Shown here in pieces: positions 4,408 to 11,612 of a stretch of 11,872 nucleotides of DNA. Under the pieces are notes generated by a model. That model was given only the letters and a program-made list of their open reading frames with translations. It was not told where the DNA came from and ran no database searches. How positions within the stretch are numbered: the first letter of the stretch is position 1; every line of letters starts with the position of its first letter. Source of the stretch: Armatimonadota bacterium (GTDB taxonomy: Bacteria; Armatimonadota; Armatimonadia; Armatimonadales; Armatimonadaceae); the NCBI GenBank assembly GCA_043754515.1, contig JAYUUO010000147.1, positions 1-11,872 on the forward strand. The letters run 5' to 3'. A program made the translations under genes and the position numbers.

Positions 4408-4659
4408 ATGAGAAAGTTGTTCCTGATAATCGTCTCCGTTCTGTCCGCCGTGATCCTGCTTGGGGTGGGAATGCCACTCATCAGCGTCGCGGGCGGAGCG
4501 GGTTCCTTTGGCGCACAGTGCTTTGCACCGCGCTACGGCATTCACGCGACCGACAGCAAGACAGGCAAAAGCGTGGGCAACGTCCACGTTCCGGCACGGA
4601 CGGCGGGCCGGAGCGTGGACGTTGCCGCCAGGTCGCGCCCCGCCGAAACACAAGCCTAA
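4408..4659 (+). CDS. Small exported/membrane-anchored hypothetical protein, 83 aa
   Basis: AAGGAG (4396-4401) before ATG 4408; MRK followed by a long hydrophobic stretch; stop overlaps the convergent gene's stop. Confidence 0.6.
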   Translation: MRKLFLIIVSVLSAVILLGVGMPLISVAGGAGSFGAQCFAPRYGIHATDSKTGKSVGNVHVPARTAGRSVDVAARSRPAETQA

Positions 4660-5598: not shown

Positions 5599-5982
5599 AT
5601 GGCATCGTTCGCGCTGGCCGTGCTCGCGGCACTCTGTTTTACCACCGGCGGCGTTTTTATGAAAGAGGCCGACGCCATGACGCGCCTTCTGCCGACGCTC
5701 GCTGTGTTCGCGCTGTTTCTGGTCGGGGCCACGCTGAACATCCTGCTCATGAGGCGGTCCGACCTGGGCGTCGCGTACGTGTTCGTGCTCGGGCTCGAAG
5801 CCGTGTTCGCGTTCCTGCTCGGCGTCTGGCTCTTTAAGGAGCCAGTGCTGACGCCGCGCGTGATCGGCGTCGCCCTGATCGTCAGCGGGATAGTATTGCT
5901 CAAGAGCGGCGGGGACGGGAGCCGGCCGCCGACACCGAGCGCGGATGATCCCGTGCTGGCCGCGCGTCGCGTCGCGCCGTGA
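5599..5982 (+). CDS. SMR/DMT family small membrane transporter, atypical
   Basis: Four hydrophobic segments; ungapped match to EmrE landmarks G17, M21K22, T28R29L30, P32, G57, A59Y60, G65; ends IGVALIVSGIVLL. TACAAT 5 nt before ATG. Confidence 0.88.
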   Translation: MASFALAVLAALCFTTGGVFMKEADAMTRLLPTLAVFALFLVGATLNILLMRRSDLGVAYVFVLGLEAVFAFLLGVWLFKEPVLTPRVIGVALIVSGIVLLKSGGDGSRPPTPSADDPVLAARRVAP

Positions 5983-6025
5983 CGCGCGACAATTCGCCCT
6001 GCTCACTTTTTTCGCGGACATCAAA

Positions 6026-6031
6026 TATAAT
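6026..6031 (+). promoter_or_regulatory. Candidate sigma70 -10 element for the RHS gene
   Basis: Perfect TATAAT in the intergenic region ~70 nt before ATG 6100, which has GAAAGGTG upstream; no convincing -35. Confidence 0.45.
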
Positions 6032-6838
6032 CTCGCCACGTCGCTCGCGCCTGGAAGCAAACTACTCGCGCTCTACTGGATTGGTGAAAGGTGGTTCGGA
6101 TGAATGTCCGTGGTGCTTTATCGCGTGCTCACTCAAACAGCGCGTCCTCTTCGTTCAGACGGGCTTTGTTAGTCGGCGGAGTAGTCCTCACTACCCTCAT
6201 AATCGGCTCGACAGCCTACCGACATGCACATCAGCCGATAGCCTCTCCCCCGGCTGTTTTCGTGCCGCCCTCGACGCGAGTACCACTCCATACAACACCC
6301 CTGACGCTCACCGCGCCAAACCGGCATCAGTGACGGCAACGCTGTGGGACGAAGTTGGTGCGCTGAATCGCACCGTGTCCCGCTCCGAGAGTGATTCATG
6401 GCACGCCGAATTGCACCACGAAAGACTGTCTACCCGCCGCCAAGCGGTACTGCATCTGCGCTACGGCGAATACGAGATGGCGGCGCATGACGATCCCGAA
6501 CGCGCCGGGTGGCACTTCCGCCGTGCCCAACAATTGACCCGCCCCGATGACACGTTGCATGGCATGGCGACCTACAACTTAGCCGTCGCCCAATATTCCC
6601 AGTGCGCCTTCGCGGACGCGACGCGAACCTTCCGTGATCTGCTGAATCCGTCAAACCATATGCACGGTTTCGTCGCGAACCATGCCACGCTCTGGTACCG
6701 GCACGCCCTTGCCTGCGAAGGCTACCACGCCGCCCACGCCGCCCTCGGTATCCCTCAACCGTCGCGCCTCGACCTGACCTGCTCCCCGAAAAGTGTACCA
6801 CAAGGAAAGTGAGTCCCCGCCCGTGAAAGGGTAGGGAA

Positions 6839-7151
6839 ATGAAACAAGGTACATTTACAGACGAGCAAATCGTTGCTGTTTTGGCGGAAGCCGAAAAAGG
6901 CGACAAGACAATTACAGCGCTCTGCAAAGAGCGGGCCATCACAGAGCAGACGTTCTATCCGGTATTTCGCCGCGAAAACCTGTGCTGGCGGAACAAGTTC
7001 GCAGGTGTGCGAACGGGTCAGCGGGATGCAAACAAGAGACGTTCAGCGGCTTCGGGAGTTAGAAAAGGAAAACTCTCGCCTCAAGCGTCTGCTTGCCGAG
7101 CGCGATTTGGAGATCGACATCGCCAAAGAGTTCCTAGCAAAAAACTCGTAG
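6839..7151 (+). pseudogene. IS3 transposase OrfA, frameshifted by small insertions
   Basis: MKQGTFTDEQIVAVLAEAE...ITEQTFY|WRNKF|SGMQTRDVQRLRELEKENSRLKRLLAERDLEID (HTH plus leucine zipper), with 24-nt and 19-nt insertions. Confidence 0.9.
7139..7145 (+). other. -1 programmed ribosomal frameshift heptamer A AAA AAC joining OrfA to OrfB
   Basis: gcA AAA AAC tcg tag at the end of OrfA; the -1 frame continues KKLVGTPAKRQ...SERRAC, as expected for IS3. Confidence 0.75.
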
Positions 7152-8076
7152 GCACTCCCGCGAAGAGACAGTTCGTTCGTTACGCTACAGTGAAAGGGAG
7201 TTCGGAACGGCGGGCTTGTTTCTGGGCGAATCTGCCGCGCTCGACACACCGCTATATCTCGCGGGGGAACGGCGATTCGGCTCTGCAGGAGTGCTTACAA
7301 CGGGATGCGGCGAAATATCCGCGCTTCGGTTATCGCCGTCTTCATGCGATGGCGAAGCGGGCGGGTCATGTCGTCAACCATAAGCGGGTCTACCGACTAT
7401 GTAAGGAACAAGGCTTGTCCGTGCGGCGGCGAACGAAACGCAAAAGCACGTTGCCGAAACAGGAGCGACCCAACAAAGCGGAACAGATGAATCATGTTTG
7501 GACCCAAGAAAATCGGCGGGCCGATTTTTCTGCGTCGATTTTGTTCAGGATCAGTTGGTATCGGGCAGGAAAGTGCGGATGTTGACAGTCACGGATGAGT
7601 ACACTCGTCAATCGCTCGCTATCACAGTCGGGTTTTCTCTGAGGTCGAAGGATGTGGCGAGTACGTTGTCGCGGTTGATCGCGGAGCGGGGCGCACCGAA
7701 GTTCTTGCGTTCGGACAACTCAGAGAAATCGCCCGGAGCGATTTTCTTGCGCTCGGAGTTCATCGCCCTGACTTTGCGTGGCTTCTTGCATCGGGGCGGG
7801 GTGTCAACGGCGTACATAGATAAAGGTAGCCCGTGGCAGAACGGCTTCGCGGAGAGTTTTCACAGTCGGTTCCGCGACGAGTTCTTGAACATGGAGGTGT
7901 TCCTGTCGCTGGGGGAGGCGACCAAGAAGACGGAGGTCTGGCGCAGGTGGTATAACGCGGAGCGGCCGCACGGCTCGTTAAAGTACGCGAGCCCGGACAC
8001 GTTCGCCCGGAATGCCCGGGAGGGGAAGGCGACACGCGAGACTGAGGCGGGGGCTAACACAAACGCTGGTACATAA
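7139..8076 (+). pseudogene. IS3 transposase OrfB (DDE/rve), frameshifted by small insertions
   Basis: YPRFGYRRL, VNHKRVYRL, HVWT|VDF, RSDN|SEF, PWQNGFAESF..RFRDEFL, YNAERPHGSL; 29-nt and 30-nt insertions. Confidence 0.92.
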
Positions 8077-10880
8077 AATGGGGGCAGGTCAGACCCGTTT
8101 TGCGCGGCGGCGGCTCTCGCCATGTGTCGGCGGGAGATCGGGCTTTCTTATGAGCGCACACGTGTTGTAGGGGCAATGCGCGTGACCGGGCGCGGTAGCT
8201 CGGACAAGGATGTGGTCGCGGCGTGTGAAAAACTGGGTGACGTAACGGCAACCGTATATCGCGGTGACGAGGCGACTCTTCGGGCGTTGCCCAAGCCGCT
8301 TATCGCGCACGTGGAACACGACCACTTCGTCGCCGTGGTGAAGGCCGACAAGACTGGCGTCACCTACTCCTGTTCGGACTGCGGGACATGGCCCGGAGGC
8401 CGCATTTCTTTGTTGTGGGAGCAGTGGCGGGCGATGGACACAAGCGAGGTGCTGTCTATCGCAAGAAGAGCACCTGAAAGCAAGCCGAACCTACTCACCG
8501 CGCTCACTGGTCGGATCAGACCACTGTTCGGGTTCGACGCGCACAGCAACGCTGGAATTACCGCGCTCGCCGGTGGGGCACGGTCGGCGATAGCGGGCGC
8601 GACTACCCCGGTCACGCTCACGGGCGACCATTGTGGGGTTGACATCGGCTCGCTACGTTGCCAGAAGAACCCGAGTTGCCCCATGTATGAGGGCGGGCAC
8701 GGGTCCGGCCCTAGTTGCCATGATCCGGTGAACCTGTCCTCAATGGAGGAGGAGCTATCGCCGGAAACCGACCTATCCATATACAATCCCACGGGACCCT
8801 CCGTGCTGTGGCAACGCATGTACAACAGTCTGCGCGGTCACCCCTTCGCCGTTGACGATCCCGAGACGATGCTCGGCACGGGCTGGTCCCACCCCTACAA
8901 CGCGTTCGTTCGCATGCCGGGGACGGGGAGCGACCGGTACCTGGTGCTTCCCAACGGATCCCGCGTCGCGTTCACTCCCGATAGCAACGCGAACGGGGTT
9001 TGTTCCTGCACCCTCAAATCTGCCGGAGAGCCGTTCCGCATCTTCGAGGTACACGAGAGACAGATAGCGGCATCCCCGAATCAGGTCACCGGCGATACAG
9101 GAGTGGCGGATGATCTGGGAATTATAGTCATACCGGTACGTTACAACTGGATTATATGTCACACGGACGGGACCGTCTGGTATACCGAGCGCAGCATGGT
9201 GTTGGAAGCCAAAGATCACACCATCGTTCGTGTTCCTGGGCCGAACTTTTTCCTCAACGTCATTGAAGATCGCAACCACAACTCAATCTTTATCGAAACA
9301 GACCGAAGTCGCATCCTGGGCGATTCCGGCAACAAGACACTCTTCCGAATTCGTCAGAGCGGGCCAACGGGCAATATACTACTCAATGTTCAAGCGTCAA
9401 AACCCGACCAGAACGGGAAAGTGACTATCGTCGCGTCGGACTGTTACAACCGCTCCGTGCAGTATTCCCGGTATGGCTACGGGTACGGCTCCGTAAACGC
9501 ACCCACTATTAACTACTCGCTCCTCGCCGACGTGTCGTACATGAACAGAACCGATGTGCGCGAACGGTACGACTATGTCAATGTTCCGAACACCGGACTC
9601 GCTCCGAAGTGCCTCTCCGCTATAACCGTCCCGTCCCCCACCGGATCGGGGACGCGAACGGCGTGGTGACGACGCGCCACTTCGACACCCCAGATGGCGC
9701 GCTTTCCGCCGTTCAGTTCTCGGAGTCGGACGGCACGACATGGACCGGCGCGAACAGCAAAAACAACGCCCTCTTTTTCTACGACGGTTTGGGCCGACTC
9801 GTTCAGAAGAGTGACGGGGCGGAAACAGTGCGGGTCGCCTACGGGCCGACCGGGGTGGTGGCGAACACGAGCCGTGTCTACAACGGGCCTCTCCGCGCCG
9901 ACGCGCCGCTCAATATCCCGATGACGCTTTCGTACGGCTACAACCCGGACGGAAGCCGCTCCTCGCTCGGCACGCCCGCCGGTACGATCAATTACACCTA
10001 CGATACGCTCGGACGTCTCGCCTCGGTGGCGGATCCATTCGGCAACACGGAGCAGTACACCTACCGACCCCGCGACACGGATAATGGTGCCTTGCTGAAA
10101 TCGTGTCGGTTCGGGTCCTCCGCGATGTACGGTACCAACGCGGCGATTGGGGGGACCCGCTACGGGCTGGATTCGTTGGGAAGGCTTGGCGAACTTGTCT
10201 ACCTGAGTTTCAGCACGTACGATTTCCAGTACCACGACGCGATCCACTTCGGTGACATGGCCGGGGGAAACCCTATCACCTATGACGGCGCGGGGAACCG
10301 ATTAAGCGTCTGGACAGCTGGACTTGTAGATCAATATTACTCACCCCACAACGAAACATTCACTTACGACGCTAAGGATCGCCTGACACGCCACACCTCC
10401 AACACCGCTTCCCACGAGTTCACCTACGATAGCATGGCGAACCCCATCGCGTTCGAGTCAGGAGGGGCGCAGTCCTTTAACCTGTGCAACCAACCGACGG
10501 ACGGGACATTTACTTACGCTCCGAACGGTGACCCGACGATCCACCATGGTACCAACACCACGTTCGATTGCAATGGAAACCTGACAACGTTCGGCTCGAC
10601 GATGCGGGCGGGCTATAACGTCTCCGGACGACGAATCTTCAAGGATAGTCCTACCGGCAAACGCCAATATTTTCTGTATGACGGCTCCCACCCGATCATG
10701 GAGGTCCAGTCCAACGGTCAGGTACTGGCTGTCAATACCTTCGGTGGCAAGGGACTGATTAGTCGCTCGACGTTCGCTACTGACGCGGCAAACATAGCGA
10801 ATATTAGTGCGACAGTACCGAACTTCGGGACGATTAATCACCTGCCCTGTGACCCTGTTCAAGACGGCCCCCCCTGTGAC

Positions 10881-10952
10881 CCGACGCCGTCGCCGACCCC
10901 CACGCCGTCGCCGACCCCCACGCCGTCACCCACCCCCACGCCGGTACCGACA
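10881..10952 (+). repeat. Four tandem 18-bp units encoding (PTPSPT)n
   Basis: ccgacgccgtcgccgacc / cccacgccgtcgccgacc / cccacgccgtcacccacc / cccacgccggtaccgaca. Confidence 0.9.
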
Positions 10953-11553
10953 ACAATCACCCTCGGGGCATTGACGAACAACGTTTTCTACATCTTCGAT
11001 GAACGCGGCAACGCGGTGTTGCGCGAGGCTCTCAAGTCCACTAATTACGCGGAGCAGTACAACGCCTACGGTCACACTTCCAGTACCCGAGGGGACGGCG
11101 ACCCGTGGGGCTACGGAGCGCAACACGGCTACTACACGGATCAGGACACGGGCCTGGTCTACTGCGCGCACCGCTACTACGACCCGAGCACGGGCCGGTG
11201 GCTGAACCGTGACCCGGCGGGGTACGCGGGCGGTCAGAACCTGTACGCGTTCTGCGGCGGCAACCCCGTGATGCGCGGCGACCCGAGCGGCCTGTCCGAC
11301 GAGGACGAGGATCTGGGCGACGACTCGAACTTCACGAGCGCTGGCCAGCTGTACGCCAAGGCGGCGGTGTCGTTCGCCAAAGACCCGATGTGGCGCGACG
11401 GGAGCTGCCAGCGCAAGGAGTTCTCGTCCGCGATCAGCAACATCCCGGCGGTCGGCGTCGCAAACAACGCCATCATTGCCTTCACCGGCCACGACGCCTC
11501 GCCCCTTCAGCGCGGGTCCGCCACCGACGCGAGCCGTGTTCACGGATCGAAAT

Positions 11554-11593
11554 GAGAAACCGGCGATACGCCTCCGCGTGTCGCCGGTTTCTC
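11554..11593. terminator. 18-bp stem hairpin between convergent genes, probable bidirectional terminator
   Basis: GAGAAACCGGCGATACGC-ctcc-GCGTGTCGCCGGTTTCTC with one T.G pair; no long U tract. Confidence 0.7.
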
Positions 11594-11612
11594 GTTCCAA
11601 CGTCGCTCTGAA

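What the first reader, a model, noticed from the sequence alone, without database searches (positions are those of the whole stretch)
6960..7749. Four tiny (19-30 nt) hairpin-associated insertions inside one IS3 transposase
Seen: the transposase fits IS3 motifs without gaps except at four sites. I1 6960-6983 (24 nt, cGGTaTTTCGCcGCGAAAACCtgt) splits TFY-R-W. I2 7001-7019 (19 nt, forms GTTCGCA-ggtg-TGCGAAC with its left flank) splits KF-SGM. I3 7505-7533 (29 nt) splits HVWT-VDF. I4 7720-7749 (30 nt) splits RSDN-x-SEF. Removing them leaves a 1215-bp element with open OrfA and OrfB; no target duplication longer than 1-2 nt is visible. Known: very small dispersed mobile repeats exist in cyanobacteria, and palindromic elements insert in Rickettsia genes. 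Inference: this genome has an active process that writes ~20-30 nt hairpins into DNA, here crippling a transposon. Exact boundaries are uncertain by a few bases.
Basis: partly seen in the sequence, partly recalled or inferred. Interest (0 to 1): 0.85.

Follow-up and report, generated by a model that had tools for sequence, protein, structure and literature searches.

The report
Tiny mobile DNA hairpins in transposon
Four 19-30-base hairpin-forming pieces of DNA have jumped into one jumping gene of an uncultured bacterium; they belong to genome-wide families that are still spreading, always land in the same loose 9-base pattern, and have no known enzyme to move them.

Summary
Confirmed. The IS3 at 6775-8091 carries four real inserts (net 24, 19, 29, 30 nt) that homologues lack. 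Each is a copy of a dispersed hairpin family of this Armatimonadota genome: I3 and I4 family A (48 matches, 0 in a shuffle), I2 family B, I1 family C. Contigs from three studies hold the same inserts, with other left flanks in two runs, plus a fifth, polymorphic A copy at 7883: not an artefact, and recently mobile. Added here: the element takes the place of one target base, and all five sites read C(-4), A(-2), pyrimidine(+2); family A shows C(-4) at 35 of 45 sites. Inserts also recur at identical sites of diverged IS630 copies. It works like the Nostoc small dispersed repeats. No dedicated enzyme was found. My best mechanism is DNA-level cut-and-join on each strand; C(-4) makes host topoisomerase I the best named, unproven, candidate. 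The scan has reported this class on other DNA (39 notes; same-site recurrence); no note held the topoisomerase words.

The parts
6775..8091 (+). IS3-family insertion sequence, 1317 bp, terminal inverted repeats TG...CA; single copy in assembly G000
   Evidence: empty site in a related strain of run X5 (joint 6772>8095)
6771..6774 (+). left copy of the IS target duplication (GACC)
8092..8095 (+). right copy of the IS target duplication (GACC)
6839..7151 (+). orfA (helix-turn-helix plus zipper), split by I1 (in frame) and I2 (frameshift into the orfB frame)
7109..8076 (+). orfB (HTH_21 and integrase core), split by I3 (frameshift just before the first catalytic Asp) and I4 (in frame, right after the second)
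   Evidence: start approximate; catalytic-residue assignment from my knowledge of IS3 DDE motifs
6959..6983 (+). I1, family-C hairpin, 25 nt in place of one base (net 24)
6998..7017 (+). I2, family-B hairpin (core 6997-7014), 20 nt in place of one base (net 19)
7504..7533 (-). I3, family-A hairpin with 28-nt core, 30 nt in place of one base (net 29); one base longer in run X5
7720..7750 (+). I4, family-A hairpin with 29-nt core, 31 nt in place of one base (net 30); homologues have G at that base
7883..7883 (-). empty target of a fifth family-A insert; 31 nt replace this base in X9 and in one X7 allele, absent in X1, X5 and the other X7 allele
   Evidence: table 8 (records 19, 20, 22, 4, 14)

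Best explanation
These are non-coding, non-autonomous micro-elements of 19-31 nt that are recognised as folded hairpins and put into DNA by an enzyme acting in trans. SHOWN: they are dispersed families with compensated stems; they insert and are polymorphic in populations; the block replaces one target base, with variable first and last letters and no real target duplication; families A, B, C, D, G and M share a loose two-fold symmetric target C-N-R-N-[N]-N-Y-N-G around the replaced base; surviving copies lie in prophages, insertion sequences and repeats, and none of the coding hits that I could name was a housekeeping gene. INFERRED: each target strand is cut just 5' of the central base and joined to an element strand by a covalent cut-and-join (transesterase) enzyme that reads C at -4; the mismatched junction bases are then fixed by replication or repair, which gives the variable ends. 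The best named candidate is the host type IA topoisomerase (TopA), whose hallmark is C at -4 (about 0.2 on its own; the rest of this explanation's weight goes to an unidentified enzyme of the same chemistry). A second route, short-patch recombination between paralogues, copies an insert into the same site of diverged IS copies. The IS3 transposase is dead, and the element has most likely been moved on by a related transposase in trans (about 0.7).
For: Stem covariation in family A: 97.7% of 300 cells paired, 12 cells with both sides changed, 0 of 500 shuffles as high, slid controls 37-58% (32 hand-picked copies). One-base replacement seen directly at 7883, where neither end letter can be the target base (table 8), and against paralogues or homologues for I4, a C copy and D copies. 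Target signature in family A: C(-4) 35 of 45, R(-2) 39 of 45, Y(+2) 38 of 45 sites after removing homologous hosts (56 matches, 11 dropped), P about 1e-10 for C(-4). When the last letter is A, the other strand also has C(-4) in 15 of 23 cases against 4 of 22 otherwise (P 0.002). All five sites of this IS read C(-4), A(-2), Y(+2) (7883 is out of sample; register and strand of I1 and I2 were my choice). Family B in G000: C(-4) 14 of 14, G(+4) 13 of 14, not independent. D, G, M, C pooled: R(-2) 25 of 33, Y(+2) 26 of 33, C(-4) 17 of 33 (my sums). TopA prefers C at -4 (passages of PMC7587558, PMC2702276, PMC9352719); G000 has one TopA that keeps the Arg-x3-Arg-x3-Tyr spacing named there; the 3' end of family A reads TCTTG|A against the E. 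coli motif TCNTT|A. Nostoc SDR5 splits HIP1 between bases 3 and 4 (passage of PMC4390886), which also puts C at -4 on one strand (weak, about even odds by chance). Paralogue spread: IS630 copies C149, C262 and L080 differ at dS 0.56-0.84, dN 0.08-0.10 yet share inserts differing at 1-2 of 29 bases; one insert sits at the same site in three deep lineages whose nearest relatives lack it; identical runs of 22-37 nt flank shared B copies. Trans mobilisation: a short internally deleted derivative with the same ends at its own locus in X1 and an 85%-identical relative in X5.
Against: No enzyme was shown; all mechanism is inferred from junctions. Topoisomerase chemistry conserves nucleotides, so loss of the central base needs an extra repair step. 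R(-2) is not in the E. coli motif, which has T there. C(-4) is weaker outside family A of G000: 6 of 11 B sites in other genomes, 6 of 9 new A sites, 6 of 15 D sites, and some nested P and D copies lack it on both strands. TopA is universal while the families are lineage-limited (A exact pattern in 2 of 41 genomes; B in 6 of 71). A search for type IA intermolecular strand transfer listed 3 papers, none opened. The strand-specific prediction for the first letter was not met (Fisher P 0.17), and first and last letters were not equal more often than chance (10 of 36, P 0.14). Contig depth is not a copy number, and the IS copies could have spread first and been converted afterwards.
Confidence: 0.45

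Rival explanations
1. A dedicated hairpin-binding nuclease or transposase (HUH/Y1 such as RAYT, an Ssn-type GIY-YIG nuclease, or an unknown prophage or plasmid protein missing from the assembly) moves the elements.
For: Imperfect stems with a bulged T resemble HUH substrates (recalled). Lineage-limited families suit a lineage-limited gene. G000 is 92.7% complete. Y1 matches exist on three contigs.
Against: No gene is regularly flanked by these hairpins (4 genes with a hairpin on both sides, none a nuclease by sequence). The Y1 matches are weak or broken and not flanked by them. The only GIY-YIG match is a 626-codon frame. The four DUF559 genes sit by a different palindrome family or none. No IS110, no integron integrase over cut-off. 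The target has no fixed tetranucleotide or CT that could pair with a guide at the hairpin foot (guide rules recalled). 64 prophage and island proteins gave no candidate in PHROGs.
Confidence: 0.25
2. The elements move through an RNA copy and a host reverse transcriptase, as I recall Elhai et al. proposing for Nostoc SDRs; untemplated end additions explain the variable letters.
For: Two RT genes are present, one retron-like and one with the small partner typical of diversity-generating retroelements (types assigned from my knowledge). Last letter is A in 23 of 45 and first letter T-rich. A G-T pair at the stem foot is never broken.
Against: Uncompensated changes favour neither strand (about 6 vs 5, my count). 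No orientation bias relative to genes (16 vs 14). Adenines in the core are conserved, unlike diversity-generating retroelement products. No Rfam match. A symmetric target is not what target-primed reverse transcription would give.
Confidence: 0.13
3. No enzyme is specific: hairpin-protected single-stranded fragments anneal by microhomology at replication forks (SPDIR-like or phage annealing protein) and this alone spreads the elements.
For: Fits same-site recurrence in paralogues and short homogenised patches, including a D copy that seems to have brought 7 flanking bases from a distant IS630 (one case). SPDIR gives 3-100-bp microindels (10.1101/2023.11.22.568220, part 1 of 3 read). A prophage AAA_24 protein is present.
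Against: For new sites it fails: flanks of 45 family-A sites cluster no more than their column composition predicts (P 0.47-0.71) and similar cores do not have similar flanks (Mantel r 0.03, P 0.25-0.29). Ends are too precise and the target pattern is shared across unrelated families.
Confidence: 0.1
4. The inserts are silent: they are spliced, skipped or bypassed during expression, so the IS3 and IS630 transposases stay functional.
For: The IS3 seems to have moved with all four inserts and no allele lacking I1-I4 was seen in four runs. IS630 copies sharing frame-breaking inserts show dN/dS 0.11-0.18. With the longer X5 form of I3 the IS would keep one open frame (my reading).
Against: Take-off and landing codons do not match at any of the four inserts and no stop follows the take-off codon (features from passages of 10.1101/2022.08.31.505936). 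In prophage genes most inserts are in frame without a stop (6 of 8 by my count), so they are translated. None of 17 coding-context hits that I could name was a housekeeping gene. A 29-nt-core A copy leaves a frame open 82% of the time by chance. The shared IS630 insert is polyphyletic.
Confidence: 0.05
5. Assembly artefact or chance hairpins.
For: G000 is a fragmented assembly (313 contigs) and X1 may be its source.
Against: Same inserts in contigs of three studies; families far above shuffles; covariation.
Confidence: 0.01

Closest known systems
Small dispersed repeats SDR1-8 of Nostoc and relatives (Elhai et al. 2008, Genome Res 18:1484). The paper itself was not held; I saw only mentions in PMC4390886, PMC13756078 and PMC3116915 (passages); the rest is recalled.
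   Same: Size class (SDR5 is 21 nt), precise insertion; recalled: several families, compensated hairpins, nesting in each other and in miniature transposons, no known enzyme.
   Different: Other phylum and unrelated sequences as far as I can tell (SDR sequences not available for comparison); no HIP1 dependence; here filled and empty alleles in one population, one-base replacement, a shared symmetric target and same-site spread among diverged IS copies.
REP/REPIN with RAYT; GTAG- and CGTC-tagged repeats (PMC3116915, PMC3733652; passages)
   Same: 20-40-nt imperfect hairpins in many copies, moved in trans.
   Different: No GTAG or CGTC tag, single units rather than doublets, mostly in mobile DNA and genes, no flanked tyrosine transposase; they insert into the genome's REP-like repeats.
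Ssn nucleases with SRM/NTS hairpins (PMC11893778, passages)
   Same: Short hairpin families thought to be handled as single-stranded DNA.
   Different: No small GIY-YIG gene found; the elements do not begin with the SRM tag.
T4 gene 60 and yeast mitochondrial byp bypass inserts (10.1101/2022.08.31.505936, passages)
   Same: Short mobile hairpin inserts inside coding sequence.
   Different: No matched take-off and landing codons, no stop after take-off; selection for in-frame copies in prophage genes.
SPDIR microindels of Acinetobacter baylyi (10.1101/2023.11.22.568220, first third read)
   Same: Short insert-plus-substitution patches; a possible route between paralogues.
   Different: SPDIR products vary in size and sequence and need microhomology; these are fixed units with a position-specific target.

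Membership tests
SDR-type very small mobile repeats | Dispersed families of about 20-30 nt far above chance | tested here: met
SDR-type very small mobile repeats | Hairpin kept by compensatory changes | tested here: met
   family A
SDR-type very small mobile repeats | Precise insertion shown by empty sites; nesting in repeats, in transposons and in each other | tested here: met
SDR-type very small mobile repeats | Sequence kinship with Nostoc SDR1-8 | not testable with these tools
   paper not held; family A exact pattern found in no cyanobacterial record among 7 genome hits
SDR-type very small mobile repeats | RNA intermediate (proposed for SDRs, recalled) | tested here: inconclusive
   no strand or orientation bias; expression not testable
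REP/REPIN-RAYT | GTAG or CGTC tag at the hairpin foot | tested here: not met
   family cores
REP/REPIN-RAYT | Tyrosine transposase gene flanked by the repeat | tested here: not met
   assembly 92.7% complete
IS200/IS605-derived miniature elements | Fixed 4-5-nt target 5' of the insert, no loss of target bases | tested here: not met
   only -4 and -2 constrained on that side; one base replaced; rule recalled
MITE of a DDE transposon | Target-site duplication and ends shared with an autonomous element | tested here: not met
   no duplication; no half-ends enclosing a gene seen (families A and D)
Ssn-SRM | Small GIY-YIG gene flanked by the hairpins | tested here: not met
   (PF01541 only; very small homologues could be missed)
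Translational bypass inserts (gene 60, byp) | Matched take-off and landing codons, stop or hungry codon after take-off | tested here: not met
Integron cassette / attC | Integron integrase and full attC structure | tested here: not met
   no match over TIGR02249 cut-off; elements far shorter than attC sites (recalled)
Type IA topoisomerase substrate | C four bases 5' of the cut | tested here: met
   35 of 45 family-A sites, 5 of 5 sites in this IS; weaker in other families
Type IA topoisomerase substrate | Enzyme cuts and joins element to target | not testable with these tools
   needs biochemistry
IS3 family (host element) | TG...CA inverted repeats, 3-4-bp duplication, orfA plus -1 orfB with integrase core | tested here: met

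The most novel reading that the evidence does not exclude
The smallest mobile DNAs need no enzyme of their own: folded 20-30-nt hairpins hijack the cell's housekeeping topoisomerase I, which cuts each strand four bases after a C and joins hairpin to target. That would explain why such elements turn up in many phyla with no transposase, and would give the Nostoc SDR puzzle a direct bench test.
Probability: 0.18. Interest if true: 0.92.

Novelty: new variant of a known kind. Interest (0 to 1): 0.62.

Why it matters
How mobile DNAs of only 20-30 bases move has been open since the Nostoc repeats were described, and this scan keeps finding them without an enzyme. This locus adds what is needed to test a mechanism: filled and empty alleles in one population, an exact junction rule (one base replaced), and a target pattern shared by unrelated families that names a candidate enzyme. 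It also shows that such inserts pile up in transposases and prophages and reach the same sites in diverged copies, which bears on how mobile elements are inactivated and on how shared inserts are read in phylogenies. I found no paper on these families or on a topoisomerase link in paper searches (listings only; most subscription papers are not held).

Tried and rejected
Targets are hairpin loops: not for family A (stem of 3 or more at 20 of 41 sites vs 50% of controls); possibly for B (9 of 14 vs 20%, inflated by tandem and fold-back copies). Loop as a guide for the target: no excess match between loop and flanks (P 0.08-0.36). Inherited flank microhomology at new sites: not supported. First letter in {T, target base} and last letter in {A, target base}: looked good on 41 sites but failed on the stricter set and at 7883. 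Palindrome-bearing KilA-N/ORF6N/Bro-type genes as source (recalled lead): ORF6N and Bro-N not found; paper search gave nothing relevant; KilA-N, RhuM and DUF1016 were not searched in the genome. Ku not found. Autonomous element with the same ends: none seen among half-sites, which were mostly nested copies or chance. The reversed-genome control is void, since reversal keeps hairpins. Viral collection: 0 hits for A and N, 1 for B. Metagenome scan gave 10 A loci but no near-identical empty site in G000. No RNA holder was listed. Only assembled contigs, not raw reads, could be laid, on 4 of 13 runs; 58 difference rows and 42 piece rows were not shown. No structure prediction was run, since a model cannot say whether the split active site works. 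Supplements were not consulted; those of Elhai et al. would hold the SDR junctions needed to test C(-4) in Nostoc.

Full report
Observation. The window is contig C147 of G000. An IS3 element lies at 6775-8091 with a GACC duplication and is single-copy in the assembly. Homologues from the phylum align with an 8-residue gap at I1, a 10-residue gap at I4 and frame jumps at I2 and I3; at DNA level the gaps are 24, 19 and 30 nt.

The inserts are members of families. I4 and, reversed, I3 belong to family A (28-29-nt core, 48 matches, 0 in a shuffle); I2 to family B (21 vs 3, including 20-nt tandem arrays); I1 to family C (28 vs 6 strand matches). A de novo scan shows a wider set with A-tract/T-tract stems, here called D, G, H, K, M, N, P, Q and R; 179 copies were catalogued. 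Family A keeps its stem by compensated changes. Empty paralogous sites exist for A, B, C, D and H, and elements nest in each other and in REP-like repeats. The exact A pattern is in 2 of 41 related genomes, D/G/M in 3 of 71, B in 6 of 71. IS elements of two other genera carry their own small hairpin inserts. Of 41 A copies, 12 lie on contigs I marked as prophage (3.6% of the genome), 14 in repeated DNA and 15 in unique DNA, against 6, 42 and 102 of 150 random non-genic positions (my prophage list was partly chosen for hairpin richness, so the contrast is overstated).

Not an artefact, and recent. Thirteen runs in four studies hold the stretch; four were laid as contigs. X1 spans 6820-8092 with no difference, at depth 67 against 24-26 on the flanks. 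X7 and X9 hold I1-I4 but have other left flanks and no depth on ours. A strain in X5 has the empty IS site. A fifth family-A copy sits at 7883 in X9 and in one of two X7 alleles. There 31 letters stand for one, and neither end letter can be the target base, since the aligned pieces stop short on both sides. X5 has a one-base-longer I3.

Junction rule and target. One-base replacement also explains I4 (homologues have G where the window has C), a C copy and several D copies; in other cases the last letter equals the target base, which cannot be told from chance. B varies from net 19 to 21. Around the replaced base, family A prefers C(-4), purine(-2), pyrimidine(+2) and, less, G(+4) (35, 39, 38, 19 of 45). 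G(+4), which is C(-4) on the other strand, goes with A as last letter (15 of 23 vs 4 of 22, P 0.002). The five sites in this IS, from three families, all read C(-4), A(-2), Y(+2). B and the D, G, M, C groups lean the same way, more weakly outside G000. Hairpin targets, loop guides and inherited microhomology were tested and not supported for family A. One enzyme with a loose symmetric site is the simplest reading (inference).

Same-site recurrence. IS630 copies C149, C262 and L080 diverged under purifying selection (dS 0.56-0.84, dN 0.08-0.10) but share an A insert with an in-frame stop and a frameshifting N insert that differ at 1-2 bases. The N insert is also in C125 and C217/C256, deep lineages whose nearest relatives are empty, and the N pattern is nearly confined to G000. 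Other IS and RHS paralogues show the same, some with identical patches of 22-37 nt. So inserts are younger than their hosts and pass between paralogues. That they are silent is unlikely: bypass signals are absent and prophage genes keep mostly in-frame copies.

Enzyme hunt. Present: one TopA, two RTs, weak or broken Y1 genes, four DUF559 genes beside other repeats, CRISPR-Cas and prophage integrases. Not found in this 92.7% complete assembly: integron integrase, IS110, Ku, ORF6N, Bro-N, a small GIY-YIG gene. No gene is bracketed by these hairpins in the manner of RAYT or Ssn. C at -4 is the documented preference of bacterial topoisomerase I (passages of PMC7587558, PMC9352719, PMC2702276). This is a resemblance of specificity, not a demonstration; the lost base, the purine at -2 and the narrow distribution are unexplained by it.

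The host IS. I2 moves reading from orfA into the orfB frame and drops the zipper; I3 ends that frame at 7585; I3 and I4 sit next to catalytic aspartates (motif roles from my knowledge). The transposase is very likely dead. Because no allele lacking I1-I4 appeared in four runs, I favour acquisition in one copy followed by mobilisation in trans, in line with a short deleted derivative in X1 and an 85%-identical relative in X5; conversion of already dispersed copies is not excluded.

Comparison and verdict. It works like the Nostoc small dispersed repeats; kinship in sequence could not be tested because the paper was not held. It fails the defining tests for REP/RAYT, IS200/IS605 miniatures, MITEs, Ssn-SRM, attC and bypass inserts. 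The scan has seen this class in at least 31 genomes and same-site recurrence elsewhere, so the class is not new; the population polymorphism, the one-base replacement and the shared C(-4) target are what this locus adds. New variant of a known kind; interest 0.62.

Noticed in passing
window 5979-6774 and 8096-11555: The IS3 splits a long gene region ending in an RHS-repeat protein (DUF6531, RHS_repeat); that gene also has a frame change near 9640-9670 with no hairpin insert, present unchanged in run X1.
   Followed up: partly
run X1, joint 6828>8050: A roughly 100-bp internally deleted derivative of this IS3 at its own locus; not in the G000 assembly.
   Followed up: no
G000 C68:20955, C97:10582; L172, L177: Elements whose left and right flanks are perfect inverted copies of each other (fold-back events at the hairpin).
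   Followed up: no
G000 C85:2-99 and C113:15-72: Head-to-tail arrays of family B with a 20-nt period running off contig ends.
   Followed up: partly
G000 C197:29307-30838; C263:17469-18857: An RT with a small partner gene like a diversity-generating retroelement, and a retron-like RT next to a large unknown gene.
   Followed up: no
G000 C143, C138, C87, C214: Prophages dense in hairpin inserts, many in frame; C138 and C143 also carry a type I-E-like CRISPR-cas locus or arrays.
   Followed up: partly
G000 C190, C248, C7: DUF559 endonuclease genes beside a separate large family of C-rich/G-rich palindromic repeats.
   Followed up: no
L003 (G029): An IS3 transposase with a four-fold 7-residue tandem repeat inside the integrase core.
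   Followed up: no
L176 (G009), L135 and L141 (G014): IS3 and IS630 copies of other genera with their own 20-25-nt hairpin inserts, some from family B.
   Followed up: partly
window 4576-4626, 11551-11596, 10880-10951: Two GC-rich inverted repeats (23 and 21-nt arms) and an 18-nt tandem repeat coding Pro-Thr-Pro-Ser in the RHS gene.
   Followed up: no
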